Below are positions 22,061 to 63,300 of a DNA stretch of 64,000 nucleotides, piece after piece. The notes under the pieces are model-generated. The model was not told where the DNA came from, did no database searches, and saw only the letters and a program-made list of their open reading frames with translations. The position numbers and the translations under genes are program-made. Within the stretch, counting starts at the first letter, position 1. Every line of letters starts with the position of its first letter. The stretch is from Squalus acanthias (lineage: Eukaryota): positions 52,514,001 through 52,578,000 of the forward strand of contig CM059440.1 of NCBI GenBank assembly GCA_030390025.1. Direction: 5' to 3'.

Positions 22061-22500
22061 AGAGATATTAGAAGGGGTGACTAAAAGCTTGGTCAAAGAG
22101 GTGGATTTTAAGGAATGTTTTGAGGGGTGGGGGGGGGGGGGAGGGAAATTAAAAAAAGTTTAGGGAGGGAATTCTGGAGCACAAGCTATAGATGGCTGCC
22201 AGTGGCAGGGCGATGGCAGTAGGGAATTCACAAGATGCCAGAGTTGGAGCAATGCAGAGGTCTCAGAGGGTTGTAGGGCGAGAGAAGGGTAGAGATTAGG
22301 AGGGACGAGGCCATGAAGGGACTTAACCACAAGGATAAGAATTTTAAATTTGAGGCGTTGGTAACCAGGAGCTAATGTAGGCCAGCGAGCACAGGGAGAG
22401 GGTTAGCAGATCGTAGTGCAGGATAGGAGAAGGGCAACAGGGTTTTGGATGAGCTGAAGTTTACATAGCGTGGAGGGTACAATACAGCATGGAGAGAACT
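22060..22500 (-). mobile_element. L2 LINE 3' fragment
   Basis: Similar to the 3' ends of the L2 copies starting at 39040 and 40860. Confidence 0.65.
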
Positions 22501-22916
22501 TCTTATATCCTCTCCAAGGAGCGAGGGAGACATTAAGGAGAGTCTTCCCAAATATGGGAGCAGAATCCAAGTCACAAAAGGACTCGAGCTATAGAGAGTT
22601 AAAGGTATTTGGTGAGAAGTGTTGGGCACAAACGAGGAAACAGCTTTTGAGCAGCCGAGCAATGCAGCAGCTCCATTTGTGGTCTTGGGAGATAGTGAGG
22701 CCAAGAACATTGATAAGTCAAGAAGTGTCGGCCCATGAAAGTTAAAAAGGTGCAGCGGTTTATACTTGTGGAACCAGAGACTGGAACAGAAGTTTCTGAA
22801 GAACTGAAAGAAGATTTCCTTTACTTCAAATGGCATGGAGATCAAGATGTCGTGATTCAGCATTGTATCGCAAGACAACTGGAGGTTATGAGTACTGAGT
22901 GTAGGACACAACTTAC

Positions 22917-23201
22917 CTACAGAAAGACCAAATGTTCGAGAAACTGATTGGTTTAGAACATCATTTCTTAATATGAATGTGTAGTTCGCACTCCTATTGG
23001 TGTCATTGATTTGCAGAATACTCTGCAGGGAGTATAGACCATCTCCACTTTGTTGGTACGAAGTCTCAGACAGTATGGAAATATCTTCATTTTCTTCATT
23101 GTACCAGGAAACAGTAGCCTCAGGGTAACCTTGGGACTCGAATCTGAACAATGTCCCAGATGGTGTTAACTGGATAAAAAAGTCAGGTTCCTTGTAGTAT
23201 G
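22917..23201 (-). CDS. B7-family (CD276-like) gene, IgC exon
   Basis: Acceptor TTTTTTAATCTACAG, donor G|GTAAGT; 285 nt, phase 1-1; AYYKEP..SQGYPEATVSW..DGLYSLQSILQ..NYTFILRNDVLNQ resembles the B7-H3 IgC pattern. Confidence 0.9.
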
Positions 23202-23784
23202 CTGTAGATTAAAAAAAGTCATTAGAAACAAGAAATAAACTTGATAAAAATAATGCCAACTAGGAATTTTGTTCCAGTTAATAACTAATTGAATAATGCA
23301 ATAAAAGCTTTAAATGATCAAAAACAACAAATCAAAGTACAAACAGAATAGTAGATATTGCTGTTTGTGATCAATTTAGAGATATTCAAATCATTGTACC
23401 AAGTGATCAAGTTGAAGGTGAAAATCCCACAATATCCTGCTGGCAGCTGTTCAGCCAAAATCATACGTAACCCTTGATGGTAAATATCAGTGGGCTTTTC
23501 ACCTGCGAGGCCATCACAGTTCAGCCCGATCCTGGAGCCGTCCACAGGCAGGGCTTGCTGAATAGCAAATGGGAGTGCCAACCCTAACCGAGGTGTGTCG
23601 ATTGCACCAATAGCACTGCTCCAGCAGAGAGGAGCTAAACCAGCAGAGTCTGGGCATCAAACCTGGTCTGTACGGCTCAGGCACTCAATGGCGAGACTCA
23701 CTGAGCCATCAGGGGAGGCCAAGAAGCATGACTTTAATTTGAAGCACTGACAGAACAAAAATTAAAACTGAAAGCAGCATGTAC

Positions 23785-54160: not shown

Positions 54161-55817
54161 TTTTCTATTTTTTCCATTTCTGTCCTGTCTGTAATGACTT
54201 TCTGGAACACTTAACCTTGCTTTTTGAAAATCATATTTTTCTCTTTCCCGCCGACAGGCTGGCTGATTCTTGCCATGTGTCTCACTCCCAAAGTCGTCCT
54301 CTGAACTGAGTCACTCAGGTCCGTTCGGAAGTTGCTCTCTCCCTCCCAGGAAGTTGTATTTTTTAAATTGTTTTTCTGCTGCCTGACTGGCACCTCCTAC
54401 CACCTCTCCCCCAACCCCAAAATCCACCTGGTCCCTAATGCTGCTTCCTGGCGCCATTGGTCAATCATAGGTAGCCGTGCCTTCTGTTGCCTAGGTCCTA
54501 AGCTCTGGAATTCCCTCCCGAAACCTCCCTGCCTCTCTACCTCTCTTTCCTCCTTTGAGACGCTTCTTAAAGAGAGTGTCAGCTGTGGCTCAGTTGGTAG
54601 TGCAGCGGGCACAGAGTGAACAACTTTGGAGTTTGGTAAGTTTGGGAGTTTTAAGGGTTAATCTCTTTTAAAATCTAGTGTTAATTGCTAGTAGCTCTTA
54701 AGTAAGATCAACTGTTTAAGTTAAATTTTAAACTTTACATTTTTAAGTTTCTTTCAGGCTTAAGCAGAGAGAAACAAGCAAGCTCTCCTACTGGAGAGCT
54801 GCTGTAGTTAGTTAATTAGCTAGCTCGATTAAGCTGGTTCCTGAAGCAATAGCAGAGCAGTGCTGACCCACCTGAGTTACAAACAGTATAAATACAGGGG
54901 TCTGTGAGTGCAGCGGGCACAGAGTGAACAACTTGGGAGTTTGGTAAGTGTGGGAGTTCGGTGAAGTGGGGGAAGGAGGTGCTGCTTTGCTTTGCTTTTG
55001 CTAACTTCTCCTGCAGAGCAGCGGTGGACCTGAGCGGGAGCAGACCGAGGCCCGAGAGCGGGGATAAAAGCAGCAGCAGCAGACCTGCAACAACAAGAGA
55101 AAACTGCAGTGTGATGTCACAGGTAAGTGATTGGTAGTGACTGTGGGCTAAGTTTTAAGTTAACATATAGCATATAATTAAATTTTAAAACCTAAACTTA
55201 ATTTAATGAATTTAATAAACTAAACGAGGTAAATAATTTGATTAACACTAAACTAATTAATTAAATAAATTAAATAATGAGAGAACAGGAGATGTGTTGC
55301 TGCTGCAATATGTGGGATCTTGTGGACATTTTTGTCCAGGGCGACTACATCTGCGGTAAGTGTCTGCGGCTCGAGGAACTTCGGCTCCAAGTTGAGGACC
55401 TTTTGCTCCAGGAGGCAGCCATACCGCTTATATTAAATACTTTAGAATTGACATGTGGTCAGGGACAGGAGGGTGTCACTGCGAATGAGGCAGGTACGGG
55501 GATCCAGGAGGTAGTATTGCAGGAGCCTCAGTCCCTGTACTTGTCCAATAGATTCGAGGTTCTTGCAACACTTGTGGACAAGTGCAGGTCTGCGGGGAGG
55601 ACAAGCAAACTGACCACGGCACCGTGGTACAGGAAGCTGTTCAAGTAGGGGGGAGTAAAAAGGAAGATTATTGTAGTAGGCGACAGTATAGTTAAGGACT
55701 AGACACTGTTCTCTGCAGCCAGGAGCATGAGTCCCGAAGGCTATGTTGCCAGGGTAAAGGACATCTACTCCGGGCTGGAGAAGAACTTGGAGGGGGAGGA
55801 TCCATGTAGATACCAAT

Positions 55818-56032
55818 TGTCATAAATCGCAAGTAACAACTCAGGAAGTACTACTGGGCGGCCAGCTGGGGCGCCGTCCAGGGAGTATAAATACTCAGGC
55901 ATGGGCCCACCTTGGGCAGAGACAATCTGGAAACAGGAAGCTAGTGACTGCTAACTAGACCTCCATGTTTTGTTACAAGTTGATTAAAGCCTTGCTTTAT
56001 GTTCAAGTGCGTAGTGAGTCTTTATTACGTCA
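55818..56032 (+). repeat. 5' LTR (TATAAATA 55886-55893, ATTAAA 55983-55988)
   Basis: Identical to 60113-60327. Confidence 0.97.
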
Positions 56033-56033
56033 A

Positions 56034-56046
56034 TTTAATCAACTTG
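56034..56046 (+). other. Non-tRNA primer-binding site complementary to LTR 55976-55988
   Basis: TTTAATCAACTTG is the reverse complement of CAAGTTGATTAAA; no TGG after the LTR. Confidence 0.7.
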
Positions 56047-56132
56047 ATATCGTCTCCACGCTTTGGGTGATTCGGAACAACCAGCTGCAACTCGAACCAC
56101 AGAAGGGAACTTGGGCAAGAAACTGATCCATC

Positions 56133-59100
56133 ATGGAAAAACTCCTTAGACCCGCTCGTCTCGACCTGGACCCGAATGCACCTGCGGCAGCAAAGGTATG
56201 GAAGCATTGGTTTCGTACCTTTAGCAACTTTCTTGAAGAATGTGGGGCGGATGTCCCTAATAAGTTACGAATGCTTATCAACTACGTGTCTCCTCATGTG
56301 TATGATTATATTGAGGACTGTATAGACTATGACACTGCTATCGAAATCTTACAGCAGCTATATGTCAAGTCCCCAAATGAAATCTTTGCTCGACACCTAC
56401 TGGCCACAACTCGGCAGCAGCCTGGGGAATCACTCGATGAATTTCTCCAGAAACTTCGCAGGCTCAGCAAGGATTGTAACCTTAAAGCAGTTTCAGCTGA
56501 ACAGTATCAAGAGGAACTAATCCGCGATTCCTTTATCAATGGAATCGCGTCCCCTTTTATACGTCAGCGCCTGCTGGAAAATAAAACCCTCAATTTACGG
56601 GCTGCTTATGACCAGGCGTGTTCCTTGGACTTGGCCAAGAAAAATGCAGACACTTATCTCCCACCACGTGCACGGGCGGCGGCTATCTCCTTTAATGAGT
56701 CTTTCGGTAGGTCTCGGGCGGATGCCCCCACTGATGTTGACTCTACTCTAACAGACGACGACCCTACCCTAGAGGCCTTCGCTGATGACGACCCCGCCCT
56801 AGCAGCATCCTGGCAATCAGGAAGAAAGTGTTTCTTTTGTGGAGGGGCGTGCCATCACAGAAAATTTTGCCCGGCTCGTAATGTGACCTGCAATCATTGC
56901 AGCAAGAAAGGACACTTTTCCAAGGTATGCCAGTCACGGGCCTTTGCTAACAAGAAAGGCCGCTCCTCTAAAGTATACCGGTCGAGAGCTCTTGTTAGCT
57001 TCACAGCTGCTATCTATGGAGCTGCTCCTCCCCCAAGAACTACTGTTAAGGCTACAGTTGCCGAAGGGAAAATTGCCCCTCCTCCCATCACGGCTGTTTT
57101 TCCCCAAAGTTTGTCCCATGCAGCCACGAAGGTTTCAGTAAATGGGCACACTCTAAGTGCGCTAATCGACTCCTGCAGCTCTGACAGCTTCATTAGTAAG
57201 CGGGCTGTCAACAGGTTAAAACTGCACATTTATCCCTCGGACAGGGAGATTGCAATGGCTCTGACGACTCTGACCACCAATTCTTCTGGCTTCTGTCTGG
57301 TCAACCTCATCCTCAACGGCCGCACATATCTCTCCACCCGGCTCGGAGTACTCGCAAACTTATGCAGCGATGTGCTTCTGGGACAGGACTTCCAGAAGCA
57401 GCACAAGAAGATCACTTTTGAGTTTGGAGGGTCAAGGCCGGAGCTTACCATTTCTAAGGTGCCGTTTTGTGCACTCTCGGCGGCCTTACTCGGTGAACCC
57501 TCCCTGTTTGCCAATCTTCCCCCCCGCTGTAAACCCATAGCCACCAAATCGCGGCGCTTTAGCCAAGACGATCGAGCGTTTATTGAGGCGGAAATCTCTC
57601 GCCTTTTAGTCGACGGTATTATCGAGCCATGTTCATCTCCCTGGCGGGCTCAGGTCGTCATCGTGAGGAATCCCTTAAAACAACATAAAAAACGTCTGTG
57701 TATCGATTATTCGCAGACTATTAATCTATATACCGATCTGGATGCCTACCCGCTGCCACGCATAGATGACATGGTCAACAACCTTGCCAAATACAAGGTA
57801 TTCTCGACCTTCGATTTAAAAAGCGCGTACCATCAGGTGCCACTGCAAGACTCCGACAAGAAGTATACGGCCTTTGAGGCCAATGGTCGGCTTTTCCAGT
57901 TTCGCCGCCTTCCATTCGGGGTCACCAATGGGGTGGCCGTCTTCCAACGGGCCATGGATGGCCTAGTCTGGCAAGAGAACTTGACGGATACCTTTCCGTA
58001 TGTAGACAATATCACTATTGCCGGCCATGATCAAAAGGAGCATGACGCCAATCTTCAGAGATTTTTTGACGTACTCCGCCGTCGCCACTTAACGTTAAAC
58101 GAATCCAAATCGGTGAAGTCGGTGCCATCGGTGAACATTCTTGGCTACTGGGTGGGCAACGGTGTTATTAAACCGGACCCAGAGCGACTTCGTCCACTTC
58201 AGGAGCTCCCTCCCCCGACGAACCTCGGCTCTCTTCGTCGGGCACTTGGCATGTTTGCTTATTACGCAAAATGGATACCACACTTCTCCGATAAAATACA
58301 GCCCCTGCTCCATGCGAAGTCTTTTCCATTGGAAGCTATGGCTATTTCTGCCTTCAACCTCCTCAAACGACAGCTGGAGAAAGCCACGCTTCGCTCCATT
58401 GACGAAAATCTTCCTTTTGTGGTCGAATGCGATGCATCGGAGGTGGCGATCTCCACTACCTTGAATCAAGGTGGCCGACCCGTGGCATTCCTATCCAGAA
58501 CCTTGCAGGGTAGCGAGCTCCATTACCCCCCCGTCGAGAAGGAGGCTACGGCCATCATCGAGGCTGTACGCCAATGGGGTCATTTTCTTGCTCGGCGTCA
58601 TTTTACGCTTATAACTGACCAGCGCTCTGTGGCCTTCATGTTGGATAACCGGAGGCGCACGAAAATCAAAAATAATAAAATTCAACTCTGGAGGATGGAG
58701 CTGGCTGCCTTTGGATATACTATCTGTTACCGACCCGGCAAACAGAACGTGGCCCCAGATACCTTCACACGGGCATTTTGCTCCTCAATGTCAACGTCGA
58801 CTCTGGCGGATTTGCATATGGACTTATGCCATCCTGGTGTGACCCGCATGTTGCACTTTGTGCGCTCCAAAAATCTACCATTTTCAACCGAGGACGTAAA
58901 GAAAACATGCTCCTCCTGTAGGATTTGTGCAGAATTGAAACCACAATTCTTCCGCCCATCAGATGGCTTACTCATACATGCAATGCAGCCTATGCAGAGG
59001 CTCAGCATAGACTTTAAAGGGCCATTGCCTTCGTCGACAAGGAACACCTACCTACTTACGATGGTGGACGAGTATTCACGCTTTCCCTTCGCCTTCCCCT

Positions 59101-60074
59101 GCCCTAATATGCTTACCTCTACGGTAATTAAATGCCTCGATCAGGTCTTTTCCCTTTGCGGGACGGCCAATTTTATCCACACTGATCGGGGTCCCTCCTT
59201 TATGTCGAGTGAACTTAAAAGTTATCTCTCCCAACGGGGAATCGCCTCAAGTAGGACGACACCATATCACCCAATCGGTAACGGACAGGTTGAACGATAC
59301 AATGCCATCATCTGGAACGCTGTCCGTCTGGCACTAAGGTCACGCAACCTGCCGGACCAGCAGTGGGAAACGGTGCTCCCCGACGCGTTACACTCTATCA
59401 GGTCTCTTCTCTCCACATCTACTAATGTCACGCCTCATGAGCGATTCTTCAAATTCCGGCGTCGCTCTACACATGGGACGTCTCTACCGTCATGGTTGGT
59501 GGCTCCAGGCCCGGTGCTACTCCGGAGGTTCGTCCGGTCTGCCAAAAACGACCCTCTCGTTGACGAGGTGGAGTTAACGGAGGTAAACCCCACGTATGCG
59601 CACGTACGGTACCCTGATGGCCGGGAGACCACCGTCTCGCTCCGAGATCTGGCTCCCTGCCCAACCGGTCACACGGGCCCGAATGATGAAGGATCCCCCG
59701 ACAATGATATCAACACTCCGCACCCCTATGAAAATGACGCCCCGCCTGGGACATCAGGGGATCTGCCGGCAACGCTACCGGATCAACTCAGGGAGCTGGA
59801 CGCTCCCCGCAGGATGGCCACCCGAAACCAGGACGCCGGACAATCTCCAGCCACGACCCGGGATGAGGCCAGCTCAGCACCTGTGGGGACCCGCACCCGG
59901 AGTCATGATATTCCCAGTCCTCCACAGGATGATCAAGATGACGCGGACTCTACTGACTTACCGGTACGGGCCAAGCGACCCAGGGACCAGGACACGGTCC
60001 GGGGAGACGTGCCTTCCAGTCACAAGCAGAGAGCTAAACGTCTGCGGCTATTTCTGGTCCGCCTAGTCCGTTAA
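56133..60074 (+). CDS. Gag-Pol polyprotein (Gag with two Zn knuckles, protease, RT, RNase H, integrase), 1313 aa
   Basis: CFFC..H..CPA and CNHCSKKGHFSKVC; LIDSCSS; FDLKSAYHQ, LPFG, YVDN; ECDAS, EKEA, TDQ; HHCC, IDFKGP, TDRG, GQVER. Confidence 0.96.
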   Translation: MEKLLRPARLDLDPNAPAAAKVWKHWFRTFSNFLEECGADVPNKLRMLINYVSPHVYDYIEDCIDYDTAIEILQQLYVKSPNEIFARHLLATTRQQPGESLDEFLQKLRRLSKDCNLKAVSAEQYQEELIRDSFINGIASPFIRQRLLENKTLNLRAAYDQACSLDLAKKNADTYLPPRARAAAISFNESFGRSRADAPTDVDSTLTDDDPTLEAFADDDPALAASWQSGRKCFFCGGACHHRKFCPARNVTCNHCSKKGHFSKVCQSRAFANKKGRSSKVYRSRALVSFTAAIYGAAPPPRTTVKATVAEGKIAPPPITAVFPQSLSHAATKVSVNGHTLSALIDSCSSDSFISKRAVNRLKLHIYPSDREIAMALTTLTTNSSGFCLVNLILNGRTYLSTRLGVLANLCSDVLLGQDFQKQHKKITFEFGGSRPELTISKVPFCALSAALLGEPSLFANLPPRCKPIATKSRRFSQDDRAFIEAEISRLLVDGIIEPCSSPWRAQVVIVRNPLKQHKKRLCIDYSQTINLYTDLDAYPLPRIDDMVNNLAKYKVFSTFDLKSAYHQVPLQDSDKKYTAFEANGRLFQFRRLPFGVTNGVAVFQRAMDGLVWQENLTDTFPYVDNITIAGHDQKEHDANLQRFFDVLRRRHLTLNESKSVKSVPSVNILGYWVGNGVIKPDPERLRPLQELPPPTNLGSLRRALGMFAYYAKWIPHFSDKIQPLLHAKSFPLEAMAISAFNLLKRQLEKATLRSIDENLPFVVECDASEVAISTTLNQGGRPVAFLSRTLQGSELHYPPVEKEATAIIEAVRQWGHFLARRHFTLITDQRSVAFMLDNRRRTKIKNNKIQLWRMELAAFGYTICYRPGKQNVAPDTFTRAFCSSMSTSTLADLHMDLCHPGVTRMLHFVRSKNLPFSTEDVKKTCSSCRICAELKPQFFRPSDGLLIHAMQPMQRLSIDFKGPLPSSTRNTYLLTMVDEYSRFPFAFPCPNMLTSTVIKCLDQVFSLCGTANFIHTDRGPSFMSSELKSYLSQRGIASSRTTPYHPIGNGQVERYNAIIWNAVRLALRSRNLPDQQWETVLPDALHSIRSLLSTSTNVTPHERFFKFRRRSTHGTSLPSWLVAPGPVLLRRFVRSAKNDPLVDEVELTEVNPTYAHVRYPDGRETTVSLRDLAPCPTGHTGPNDEGSPDNDINTPHPYENDAPPGTSGDLPATLPDQLRELDAPRRMATRNQDAGQSPATTRDEASSAPVGTRTRSHDIPSPPQDDQDDADSTDLPVRAKRPRDQDTVRGDVPSSHKQRAKRLRLFLVRLVR

Positions 60075-60100
60075 AGGAAGACTGGACTTCCAAACCTTTT

Positions 60101-60112
60101 AGGGAGGAAGAA
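60101..60112 (+). other. Polypurine tract
   Basis: AGGGAGGAAGAA abutting the 3' LTR. Confidence 0.9.
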
Positions 60113-60327
60113 TGTCATAAATCGCAAGTAACAACTCAGGAAGTACTACTGGGCGGCCAGCTGGGGCGCCGTCCAGGGAGTATAAATACTCAGGCATGGG
60201 CCCACCTTGGGCAGAGACAATCTGGAAACAGGAAGCTAGTGACTGCTAACTAGACCTCCATGTTTTGTTACAAGTTGATTAAAGCCTTGCTTTATGTTCA
60301 AGTGCGTAGTGAGTCTTTATTACGTCA
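60113..60327 (+). repeat. 3' LTR
   Basis: Identical to the 5' LTR. Confidence 0.97.
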
Positions 60328-63300
60328 CCAATGACATAGGTAGGACTAAGAAAAAGGTTCTACTGAGAAAGTTTGAGCAGCTAGGGACTAAATTAAAAAG
60401 CAGAACCACAAAGGTAATAATCTCTGGATTATTACCTGAGCCACGAGCAAATTGGCATAGGGTAAATAGGATCAGGGAGATGAATGCATGGCTCAAAGAT
60501 TGGTGTGGGAGAAGTGGGTTTCCATTCGTGGGGCACTGGCACCAATACTGGGGAAAGAGAGAACTGTTCCATTGAGACGGACTACACCTGAACCATGCTG
60601 GGACCAGAGTTCTAGCAAATCGAATAACTAGGGAGGTAGATAGGGCTTTAAACTAAATAAGGGGAAGGAGGGTCCCGGTGGAGAGAAATCTAGAATGCTA
60701 AAGAGAAAAGACAAGGAAGCAGTGCAGGAAAGTGATTGGGGTAAGGATAACCAGATTGTGTTAGGAAGGGACAGAGCGTACAAACAAAGGAGTGCACTAA
60801 CAAATAGGGTCCAGGTAAGAAAAAATGGTAATAAGACAAATAGGGCCATAGTACAAAAAAAGTTAAGACGTCTAAAAATGTTAAAGACAAATCTAAAGGC
60901 ACTGTATCTGAATGCACGAAGTATTTGTAATAAGGTAGACGAATTAACAGCACAAATAGATGTAAACAGATACGATATAATTGCAATTACGGAGACATGG
61001 CTGCAGGGTGACCAAAGCTGGGAGCTGAATATCCAAGGAGATTCGATATTTAGGAAGGACAGGCAAAAAGGAAAAGGAGGCGTTGTTAGTAAAGGATGAA
61101 ATCAGAGCAATAGTGAGAAAGGATATTGGCTCAGAAAATCAAGATGTAGAATTAGTCTGGGTGGAGCTAAGAAGCACCAAAGGGCAGAAAATACTGGTGG
61201 GAGTTGTCTATAGGCCTCCAAACAGTAGTGGTAATGTAGGGGATGGCATCAAACAGGAAATTAGAGATGCATGTAACAAGGGTACTACAGTAATCATGGG
61301 TGACTTTAATCTACATATATACTGGCTAAACCAAATTAGCAATAACACTGTGGAGGATGAATTCTTGGACTGTGCACGAAATGGTTTTTTGGAATAGTAC
61401 ATTGAGGAGCCAACTAGGGAACAGGCTACCCTAGATTGGGTATTGTGCAATGAGAAGGGGTTAATTAATAATCTTGTTGTGCGGGGTCCTTTAGGGAAGA
61501 GTGACCATAACATGTTAGAATTCATCATTAAGATGGAAAGTGAAGTAGTCCAATCGAAACTAGTGTCCTAAATCTAAACAAAGGGAACTACGAAGGTATG
61601 AGGAGGGAGTTGGCTATGATAGATTGGGGAGCTTTATTAAAAGGCATGATGGTGGATAGGCAATCGCTAACATTTAAGGAACGAATGCATGAATTGCAAC
61701 AGTTATACATTCCTTTCTGGCGCAAAAACACAAAAGGAAAAGCGGCCCAACCATGGCTAACAAAATAAATTAAGGATACTATTAGATTCAAAGAGGAGTC
61801 ATATAAAGTTGCCAGAAAAAGTATCAAGCCTGAGGATTGGGAGCAGTTTAGAATTCAGCAAAAAAGGACCAAGAGATTGATTAAAAGGGGAAAAATAGAG
61901 TATAAGAGTAAACTTGCAAGGAACATAAAAGCGGACTGTAAAAGCTTCTACAAGTATGTAAAAAGAAAAAGATTATTGAAGACAAATGTAGGTCGCTTAC
62001 AGTCAGAAACAGAAGAATTTATAATGGGGAACAAGAAAATGGCAGAGCAATTAAACAAATACTTTGGTTCTGTCTTCACAGAAGAGGACACAAATAAATT
62101 CACAGAAATGCTAGGGAACCAAGGGTCTAGTGAGAAGGAGGAATTAAAGGAAATTAGTATTCGTAAAAAAATAGTGCTGGAGTAATTAATGGGACTGAAA
62201 GCCGATAAATCCCATGGGCCTGATAATCTGCATCCCAGAGTACTAAAAGAAATAATGGACGCATTGGTTGTCATCATCCAAAATTCTATAGATTATGGAA
62301 CAGTTCCTGCAGATTGGAGAGTGCCAAATGTAACCCCACTATTTAAAAAGAGAGGGAGAGAGAAAACAGGAAACTACAGACCGGTTAGCCTAACATCAGT
62401 AGTAGGGAAAATGCTAGAGTCTATTATAAAGGATGTGATAACAGGACACTTAGAAAATATCAACGGGATTAGACAAAGTCAACATGGATTTATGAAAAGG
62501 AAATCGTGTTTGACAAACCTCCTGGAGTTTCTTGAGGATGTAACTGGTTGAATAGATAAGGGAGAACCAGTGGATGTAGTGTATTTGGATTTTCAGAAGG
62601 CCTTTGTTAAAGTCCCACATAAGAGGTTAGTGTGCAAAATTTAAGCACATGGGATAGGGGGTAATATACTGGCATGGATTGAAAATTGGTTAACAGACAG
62701 GAAACAGAGAGTAGGCGGTGATTAGTGGGGTACCGCAGGGATCAGTGCTTGGGCCCCAGCTATTCACAATATATATCAATGATTTGGATGAGGGAACCAA
62801 ATGTAATATTTCCAAGTTTGCTGATGACACGAAACTAGGTGGGATTGTGAGTTGTGAGGAGGATGCAAAGAGGCTTCAAGGCGATTTAGACAAGTTGAGT
62901 GAGTGGGCAAATACATGGCAGATTCAGTTTAACGTGGATAAATGTGAAGTTATCCACTTCAGTAGGAAAAACAGAAAGGCAGAGTATTATTTAAATGGGG
63001 ATAGATTGGGAAATGTTGATGTACAAAGGGACCTGGGTGTCCTTGTACACCAGTCACTGAAAGCAAACATGCAGGTACAGCAAGCAGTTAGGAAGGCAAA
63101 TGGTATGTTTGCCTTCATTGCAAGAGGATTTGAATACAGGAGCAAGGATGTCTTACTACAGTTATACAGGGCCTTGGTAAGACCACACTTGGAGTACTTT
63201 GTGCAGTTTAGGTCTCCTTACCTAAGAAAGGATATGCTCGCCATAGAGGGAGTGCAGCGAAGGTGCACCAGACTGATTCCTGGGATGGCAGGACTGTTGT

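What the first reader, a model, noticed from the sequence alone, without database searches (positions are those of the whole stretch)
57999..58010. RT catalytic motif YVDN instead of YxDD in an apparently just-transposed element
Seen: TAT GTA GAC AAT (YVDN) at the YxDD position, with the first catalytic Asp (FDLKSAY) intact, an uninterrupted ORF and identical LTRs. Established: the second Asp of YxDD is nearly invariant, and Asn there strongly impairs HIV-1 RT and blocks Ty1 transposition. Inference: either a lineage that naturally uses YxDN, possibly co-evolved with the unusual priming, or one CpG transition (GACGAT>GACAAT). My unverified recollection is that similar YLDN-type elements occur in aquatic animals.
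Basis: partly seen in the sequence, partly recalled or inferred. Interest (0 to 1): 0.7.

Follow-up and report, generated by a model that had tools for sequence, protein, structure and literature searches.

The report
Retrotransposon polymerase lacking its third aspartate
A large group of jumping genes in aquatic animals, with over three thousand copies in this genome, carries asparagine where reverse transcriptases normally have a third catalytic aspartate, has switched between the two residues several times, and very likely copies itself with the asparagine form, which offers natural enzyme pairs for asking what that residue does.

Summary
Confirmed, and not a one-off mutation. The Asn aligns to Ty3 D214 in a full-length Ty3/Gypsy element (55818-60327; 215-nt LTRs, 5-bp target duplication, one 1313-aa ORF). 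Genome-wide, 677 family copies have Asn and none has Asp; a clade-wide pattern gives 3304 Asn to 1 Asp over at least three families. Only the Val is private to this copy; the family reads YLDN. Asn also dominates homologues from crustaceans, corals, molluscs, tunicates, flatworms and rays (98 of 116; 93 of 120 with an Asp-bearing query). The Asn RT is under purifying selection (dN/dS about 0.04). Trees put Asp at the base, Asn in a crown group and Asp lineages nested inside it; one Asn clade is rejected. The site takes Asp or Asn, never Glu. The self-pairing primer site also occurs in a basal Asp element, so it predates Asn. 'Just transposed' is overstated. Natural YVDN is in print for nematode BEL/Pao elements; I found no paper for Gypsy. 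Enzyme activity is inferred, not assayed.

The parts
55813..55817 (+). 5' target-site duplication CCAAT; the element interrupts the ORF1 (esterase) region of a CR1-like LINE
   Evidence: repeated at 60328-60332; LINE type read from sequence and from Pfam hits of like copies
55818..56032 (+). 5' LTR, 215 nt, TG...CA
55886..55893 (+). TATA-like box (start site not mapped; inferred)
   Evidence: similar box in the two other families
55976..55988 (+). LTR arm ending in the poly(A)-signal-like ATTAAA; pairs with the primer-site arm
56034..56046 (+). Primer-binding-site position: 13 nt perfectly complementary to the LTR arm, starting 1 nt after the LTR end; no tRNA-type TGG
   Evidence: (0 of 1000 shuffles); junction exact in 504 genomic copies
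56133..60074 (+). Single gag-PR-RT-RH-IN ORF, 1313 aa; two CCHC boxes; no env or chromodomain hit
57168..57176 (+). Protease active site D-S-C (family trait: Cys in 36 of 37 copies; DSC in 17 of 67 homologues)
57813..57815 (+). First RT catalytic Asp (D561 = Ty3 D151)
   Evidence: Asp in 200 of 205 clade rows
57999..58010 (+). RT motif YVDN (family YLDN): D625 = Ty3 D213, N626 = Ty3 D214
58014..58016 (+). Thr628 (Asn+2), typical of the crown group; candidate permissive residue (inferred)
   Evidence: 91% of crown Asn rows, 100% of crown Asp rows, 29% of basal Asp rows, not among the two commonest residues of the outgroup
58431..58760 (+). RNase H with intact D767, E804, D829, D876
59010..59294 (+). 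Integrase core with intact D960, D1018, E1054
60101..60112 (+). Polypurine tract
60113..60327 (+). 3' LTR, identical to the 5' LTR
60328..60332 (+). 3' target-site duplication CCAAT

Best explanation
This is one copy of a high-copy Ty3/Gypsy retrotransposon family whose reverse transcriptase carries Asn at the third carboxylate position in essentially every copy, and that enzyme is very likely active and copies the element itself. Shown: Asn is fixed in three families of this genome, is the majority state in a cross-phylum crown group, alternates with Asp on the tree, and sits in an RT under purifying selection. Inferred mechanism: D561 and D625 (Ty3 D151/D213) bind the two metals. Residue 626 supplies a side-chain carbonyl of the right length for metal or primer positioning and pyrophosphate release, so Asp or Asn is accepted and Glu is not. 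Background changes that arose near the base of the crown group (Thr at +2, and clade-specific palm and RNase H residues) probably remove the penalty that makes the same swap lethal in Ty1 and Ty3, after which the site toggles nearly neutrally. Minus-strand synthesis is probably primed by the element's own RNA, a trait older than the Asn.
For: Family pattern: 677 AAT, 1 CAT, 0 GAT. Clade-wide pattern: 3304 Asn to 1 Asp, and that one is a lone variant of an Asn family. 40 copies picked by the LTR junction, not by RT: 38 of the 38 that cover the motif are YLDN; 33 of 36 two-LTR copies have perfect, mostly different 5-bp duplications. RT dN/dS 0.036-0.045 between two Asn families of this genome, equal to RNase H and integrase. 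Shared variants in the family are depleted of amino-acid changes (13 N/21 S against singletons 240/121, p 0.002). In 123 crown Asn RTs: D561 98%, D625 100%, RNase H D/E/D 97-99%. Site spectrum in 204 clade rows: N 136, D 62, E 0, other 3, gap 3. AlphaFold model pLDDT 94, best match Ty3 RT, Z 22.2, rmsd 3.2 over 236 residues. Ty1 D211N and Ty3 D214N keep polymerase activity in vitro while Asn at the other two Asp kills it; Ty1 D211E is dead; RNase H suppressors partly rescue Ty1 D211N.
Against: No enzyme or transposition assay exists for this clade. The same swap cuts Ty1 kpol 223-fold and abolishes transposition in Ty1 and Ty3. Ty3 D214E kept activity in vitro, so 'shape not charge' does not hold for every RT. 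The within-family selection test is not significant for the RT domain alone (3 N/4 S against 34/21, p 0.43). No Asn-specific compensating residue was found: crown Asp rows share the candidates. Only 8 of 41 sampled copies keep a frame of 1280 aa or more. Self-priming rests on covarying base pairs, not on mapped RNA ends; the scan found a helix of 12 bp or more in only 14 of 41 metagenome loci, and I did not check the misses one by one.
Confidence: 0.88

Rival explanations
1. A single CpG transition made a dead YVDN copy in a YxDD family.
For: The codon pair GAC AAT is one transition from a CpG-containing pair (sequence); CpG-type changes make up 182 of 453 variants in the family.
Against: 0 of 678 family matches have Asp; the third family has GAT AAT, with no CpG context; AAC codons occur in 20 of 70 metagenome loci.
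Confidence: 0.005
2. The Asn RT is inactive and the families are mobilised in trans by a YxDD helper; the RT sequence is kept for a structural or RNase H-supporting role.
For: The swap is lethal for transposition in Ty1 and Ty3. Ty3 RT has an asymmetric dimer in which one polymerase site is occluded, so a non-catalytic role is conceivable. The degenerate pattern would miss a helper outside the crown group.
Against: No Asp family of the crown type in the genome (1 match against 3304). The other two catalytic Asp stay 98-100% conserved in Asn rows. RT dN/dS equals that of integrase. RT is made in cis on one polyprotein.
Confidence: 0.04
3. Asn is adaptive rather than tolerated: a slower or differently metal-tuned polymerase, matched to RNase H cutting of the self-primer or to lower host cost, with lineages switching between two selected states.
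For: Asn is kept over long branches and is the majority state; in this genome no Asp sublineage has spread among 3304 copies. Ty1 links this residue genetically to RNase H and to Mn2+ preference.
Against: The self-pairing site is present with Asp in a basal element. Nested Asp lineages persist (11 of 11 readable members YLDD in each of two clusters). Root-to-tip distances of crown Asn and Asp rows are equal (0.77 and 0.76). No residue tracks the switch cleanly.
Confidence: 0.2
4. The genomic Asn codon is recoded to Asp by A-to-I editing of the RNA (AAY read as GAY).
For: The change needed is one A to G at the first codon position (genetic code).
Against: An edited genomic RNA would be reverse transcribed into Asp copies; 0 of 678 and 1 of 3305 are seen. 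Contigs of three public runs, two guessed to be RNA, show no difference at 58008 (contigs drop rare variants).
Confidence: 0.01

Closest known systems
Nematode BEL/Pao elements with YVDN (C. elegans Cer7-Cer12; Ancylostoma Atlas virus)
   Same: Natural Asp-to-Asn change at the same RT position in intact elements with identical LTRs; activity of the Asn enzyme was stated to be untested (PMC554778 and PMC9094657, passages read).
   Different: A different superfamily. Here the element is Ty3/Gypsy with two CCHC boxes and no env; Asn arises above an Asp basal grade, so the origin is independent, and Asp lineages are nested inside the Asn group.
Ty1 RT D211N and Ty3 RT D214N laboratory mutants
   Same: Same position and residue; polymerase activity is kept in vitro (PMC2148107 abstract and introduction; PMC5371799 passages). 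Ty3 RT is the closest solved sequence and fold.
   Different: Those mutants cannot transpose (Ty1 regains 5-10% with RNase H suppressors); here Asn is the wild type of families with hundreds to thousands of insertions.
Cigr-1 clade of Ty3/Gypsy (RepeatMasker class LTR/Gypsy-Cigr)
   Same: Listed traits of Cigr-1: two CCHC boxes, integrase after RNase H, no chromodomain, env or extra gene (supplement row of PMC2774666); hosts are tunicates, molluscs and annelids. The recalled ORF size of about 1210 aa fits the homologues.
   Different: No Cigr-1 sequence was available, so placement was not tested; the traits are not unique to that clade. None of the passages I read on Cigr-1 mentions YxDN or self-priming.
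Self-primed Tf1/Tf2/Tj1 and the Tf1/sushi group
   Same: Primer site complementary to the element's own LTR in place of a tRNA (PMC4600332, PMC6317226, passages).
   Different: In Tf1 the arm is the 5' end of the mRNA. Here it ends in the poly(A)-signal-like hexamer about 85 nt downstream of a TATA-like box, so it is probably internal; no chromodomain hit.

Membership tests
Ty3/Gypsy LTR retrotransposons (Metaviridae) | Domain order gag-PR-RT-RH-IN | tested here: met
   Pfam order PR 333-420, RT 528-673, RH 738-860, IN 888-1047
Ty3/Gypsy LTR retrotransposons (Metaviridae) | TG...CA LTRs, polypurine tract, short target duplication | tested here: met
   33 of 36 two-LTR copies with a perfect 5-bp duplication
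Ty3/Gypsy LTR retrotransposons (Metaviridae) | RT closest to Ty3/Gypsy RTs | tested here: met
   Ty3 RT best by sequence (E 9.7e-43; next other RT 3e-29) and by fold (Z 22.2, MLV fragments within 1)
Canonical three-aspartate RT active site | YxDD motif | tested here: not met
   YxDN in 677 of 678 family matches
Cigr-1 clade | Two CCHC boxes, IN after RH, no chromodomain, env or extra ORF | tested here: met
   against the trait row
Cigr-1 clade | GPY/F module lost | tested here: inconclusive
   No Pfam hit in the C-terminal 191 aa; no dedicated model run
Cigr-1 clade | RT/RH phylogeny groups with Cigr-1 of Ciona intestinalis | not testable with these tools
   No Cigr-1 sequence came from any call
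Nematode YVDN BEL/Pao elements | Asn at the last YxDD position | tested here: met
Nematode YVDN BEL/Pao elements | BEL/Pao anatomy (triple Cys-His box; env in Atlas-like members) | tested here: not met
   Two CCHC boxes, no env ORF
Tf1/sushi self-priming group | Primer site complementary to own LTR, no tRNA site | tested here: met
   13 bp in the window; 11-15 bp with changed pairs in 10 elements
Tf1/sushi self-priming group | Primer arm is the 5' end of the mRNA and is cut by RNase H | not testable with these tools
   No raw RNA reads were laid on the element
Tf1/sushi self-priming group | Chromovirus placement and chromodomain | tested here: inconclusive
   No chromodomain hit; no Tf1 or sushi reference in my trees

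The most novel reading that the evidence does not exclude
A cross-phylum Ty3/Gypsy lineage evolved a reverse transcriptase that runs on two carboxylates and uses the third position as a selectable Asp/Asn switch of speed, processivity or metal preference, coupled through RNase H to a self-priming step that uses the element's own poly(A)-signal region as primer.
Probability: 0.2. Interest if true: 0.8.

Novelty: new variant of a known kind. Interest (0 to 1): 0.55.

Why it matters
The third RT carboxylate is treated as invariant, and its role has been argued from laboratory mutants that cannot transpose (Ty1 D211N, Ty3 D214N). Whether a natural YxDN enzyme works was left open in print in 2005. 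Here Asn is the wild type of families with thousands of insertions, under strong purifying selection, with close Asp sister lineages about 70% identical. Those natural pairs make the question directly testable without engineering and should show what background makes the residue dispensable. In practice, pipelines that call YxDN elements dead would misjudge an abundant class of animal retrotransposons.

Tried and rejected
CpG single-mutant, trans-helper and RNA-editing readings: see rivals. Search for an Asn-specific compensating acidic residue: none; the conserved acidic positions are shared with Asp rows. dN/dS against distant homologues: synonymous sites saturated, so only dN 0.18-0.29 for RT can be stated; the usable values come from the third family of this genome. 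Expression and RNA ends: no RNA holder listed; the one raw RNA run laid 0 reads, which is no test. No relatives in viral contigs. No tRNA gene in the window. Cigr-1 placement: no sequence in the supplements searched (one scanned file not searched, three files) and no Ciona-named hit. Paper searches without a description of YxDN in Gypsy: 0 hits; 0; 10 listed, relevant only BEL/Pao; 11 listed; without a description of this priming layout in animal non-chromovirus Gypsy. Term look-ups with nothing relevant: PMC12440569, PMC3118150, PMC11673190, PMC13524379. The original Tf1 paper is not held. The library lacks most subscription journals and Repbase reports, so a prior description may exist. In crown YLDD locus L033 neither an LTR pair nor a helix was found, so it does not bear on coupling.

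Full report
Observation. Bases 57999-58010 read TAT GTA GAC AAT, YVDN, residues 623-626 of one 1313-aa ORF with Pfam domains in the order protease, RT, RNase H, integrase. Identical 215-nt LTRs and a 5-bp target duplication bound the element at 55818-60327, inside an older LINE. The alignment to Ty3 RT puts the Asn on the second Asp of YLDD. An AlphaFold model of the RT (100-row alignment, pLDDT 94) puts it at the start of the strand after the motif turn and matches Ty3 RT best (Z 22.2, rmsd 3.2, 236 aligned; MLV fragments are within 1 Z).

The Asn is fixed in the family. A DNA search of the 3.7-Gb genome gave 1151 candidates, 40 scored; of the 30 loci read, 29 were YLDN and one was the window. 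Exact patterns over the whole genome found 677 copies with A at the first base of the codon, one with C and none with G. The Val is in 1 of the 677, the window. To avoid choosing by RT I took the first 40 of 504 copies listed for the LTR-primer-site junction. 38 of 40 cover the motif and all 38 are YLDN; 36 of 40 showed both LTRs, and 33 of these have a perfect 5-bp duplication. A degenerate pattern for the wider group gave 3304 Asn matches and 1 Asp match. 18 loci from two further families (81% and about 90% RT-RH amino-acid identity) showed 17 YLDN and that single YLDD, a broken copy of the third family. The pattern needs Thr at +2 and would miss more distant Gypsy families.

Age. LTR pairs differ by 1.7 substitutions on average and 8 of 36 are identical, so identical 215-nt LTRs say little. 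The window copy is 0.7% from the others over the ORF and has 5 private substitutions, 3 nonsynonymous, against 3-18 per copy. 8 of 41 copies keep a frame of 1280 aa or more. It is a young copy of a recent burst. I have no rate to date it and no evidence that this particular copy is active.

Distribution. Of the best 120 of 1216 homologues, 119 aligned over the motif, 3 had a gap, 98 had Asn and 18 Asp. Named hosts include Palaemon, Macrobrachium, Caligus, Xenia, Mytilus, Hypanus and Scyliorhinus; the Clavelina and Trichuris hits in this set have Asp. With an Asp-bearing query, 93 of 120 hits still had Asn and 22 Asp, adding Plakobranchus, Actinostola, Paramuricea, Spirometra and a Clavelina YQDN. 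Among 150 representatives at 50% clustering (149 covered), Asn was 30 of 47 at 50% identity or more, 8 of 35 at 40-50%, 0 of 3 at 37-40% and 0 of 64 below 37%. In 80 metagenome loci, 70 readable, the codon was AAT in 34, AAC in 20, GAT in 2 and other or frameshifted in 14; many loci repeat one another across samples.

Phylogeny. Trees left out the Asn column, rows with other residues there and short rows. In a quick tree of 193 rows rooted on 15 distant Gypsy RTs, the group is one branch (178 rows, SH-aLRT 100) with Asp rows at its base; a crown of 146 rows (95) holds 123 Asn and 23 Asp; 12 changes are needed, 6 forced by strong branches. A careful tree of 58 hand-picked rows needs 9 changes (7 forced; 8-11 over bootstraps) and rejects one Asn clade (p-AU 6.9e-54); in it the base of the crown is poorly resolved, so one gain with several reversions and several gains cannot be told apart at that depth, but Asp lineages nested among Asn relatives are well supported. 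Members of two nested Asp clusters are YLDD in 11 of 11 readable cases each, of 14 listed.

Selection. Between the window and three copies of the third family, RT dN/dS is 0.036-0.045, the same as RNase H and integrase; gag is about 0.08-0.09. Within the family, variants shared by three or more of 37 copies are 13 nonsynonymous to 21 silent, against 240 to 121 for singletons (p 0.002); for RT alone the counts are too small (p 0.43). In crown Asn rows the other two RT aspartates are kept in 98% and 100%, and the RNase H carboxylates in 97-99%. Over 204 clade rows the third position has 136 Asn, 62 Asp, no Glu, 3 other and 3 gaps: constrained, but to two residues.

Mechanism (inferred). Ty1 D211N keeps polymerase activity with kpol 223-fold lower, prefers Mn2+, has altered pyrophosphate binding and cannot transpose; RNase H suppressors restore 5-10%; D211E is dead (PMC2148107, abstract and introduction read). 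In Ty3, Asn at D151 or D213 kills the enzyme; D214N and D214E keep activity with low processivity, and all are lethal in vivo (PMC5371799, passages). So the third Asp is accessory in retrotransposon RTs, and the natural Asp/Asn spectrum fits a need for a carbonyl of that length. I found no new acidic residue specific to Asn rows. Residues that appear with the crown and are shared by its Asp members include T628 (+2), Q528, T559, V597, F621 and several in the connection and RNase H region; the whole clade also has its own RNase H residues such as E765 and Q830. These are candidates for a permissive background, untested.

Priming. The sequence after the 5' LTR has no tRNA-type TGG. It pairs over 13 bases with the LTR segment ending in ATTAAA. 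The window and six LTR-defined metagenome elements (five distinct families in all) gave 12-15 bp, matched by 0 of 1000 shuffles each. Across 10 elements the helix starts 1 nt after the LTR end, is 11-15 bp, and keeps pairing while letters change: 5.9 of 6 variable positions pair within elements, 3.8 across them; three of the ten were picked by the helix scan itself. The scan found 12 bp or more in 14 of 41 loci with upstream DNA, one of a different form; the others may be decayed or truncated, which I did not check. A YLDD element, L172, has a 15-bp helix in the same register and sits in the basal Asp grade (100/98 with P0176). On this one case the priming layout is older than the Asn, against the proposed co-evolution. 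Tf1-type self-priming is known from PMC4600332 and PMC6317226 (passages). RNA ends could not be mapped.

What is known. YVDN is reported for C. elegans Cer7-Cer12, with activity left open (PMC554778, passages; the primary paper was not read), and for hookworm belpaoviruses (PMC9094657, passage). Those are BEL/Pao elements, so the present case is convergent. Searches for a Gypsy case found none; subscription journals, Repbase reports and some supplementary files were out of reach and may hold one. The likely clade name is Cigr-1. The lead came from an earlier AI note (e1-9160346), which also reported Asp/Asn toggling in another genome; it is not independent evidence. The anatomy matches the Cigr-1 trait row in a supplement of PMC2774666 and the host range in PMC6238403 and PMC8556966 (passages and supplement rows), but no reference sequence was available, so I do not file it there as tested. 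Several earlier notes on this genome describe the same primer-site helix; my searches came before I saw them.

Verdict. The feature is real and is a lineage trait: a Ty3/Gypsy RT variant with two fixed carboxylates and an Asp/Asn third site, very likely functional (0.88). New variant of a known kind; interest 0.55, because a natural precedent exists in another superfamily and activity is untested, but the natural Asn/Asp sister enzymes make an old active-site question testable.

Noticed in passing
window 55976-55988 with 56034-56046: The primer-site helix covers the poly(A)-signal-like hexamer and can form only at the 5' LTR, so it may also block premature polyadenylation there. Earlier notes on this genome describe the same helix.
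   Followed up: partly
window 57168-57176: The protease triplet is D-S-C in place of D-S/T-G; a family trait, seen in 17 of 67 full-length homologues.
   Followed up: partly
G000:C4:939688 and 943983; G000:C1:564543, 568790, 573037: RT matches spaced 4295 and about 4247 bases apart, which is element length minus one LTR: probably tandem copies sharing an LTR.
   Followed up: no
window 55818-60327: Public runs coded as five different organisms in six studies hold 62-91% of the sampled 31-mers of the element; contigs of three laid runs differ from it at few positions. Close host species, host DNA in metagenomes or recent horizontal transfer were not told apart.
   Followed up: no
L171-L175: Members of this clade lie in contigs of bacterial metagenome-assembled genomes, probably host contamination. 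L171 and L172 are circularly permuted contigs with one LTR (one-LTR circles or assembly collapse).
   Followed up: partly
window 22372-23208 (-): Frame with an Ig C2-set domain hit (butyrophilin-like, E 1.2e-06), probably an exon of a host gene.
   Followed up: no
window 900-64000, many places: The rest of the window is mostly decayed LINE pieces, CR1-like by my reading, with esterase ORF1, endonuclease and RT hits. With the 3.7-Gb genome and ray and catshark homologues this suggests a cartilaginous fish host (inference).
   Followed up: no
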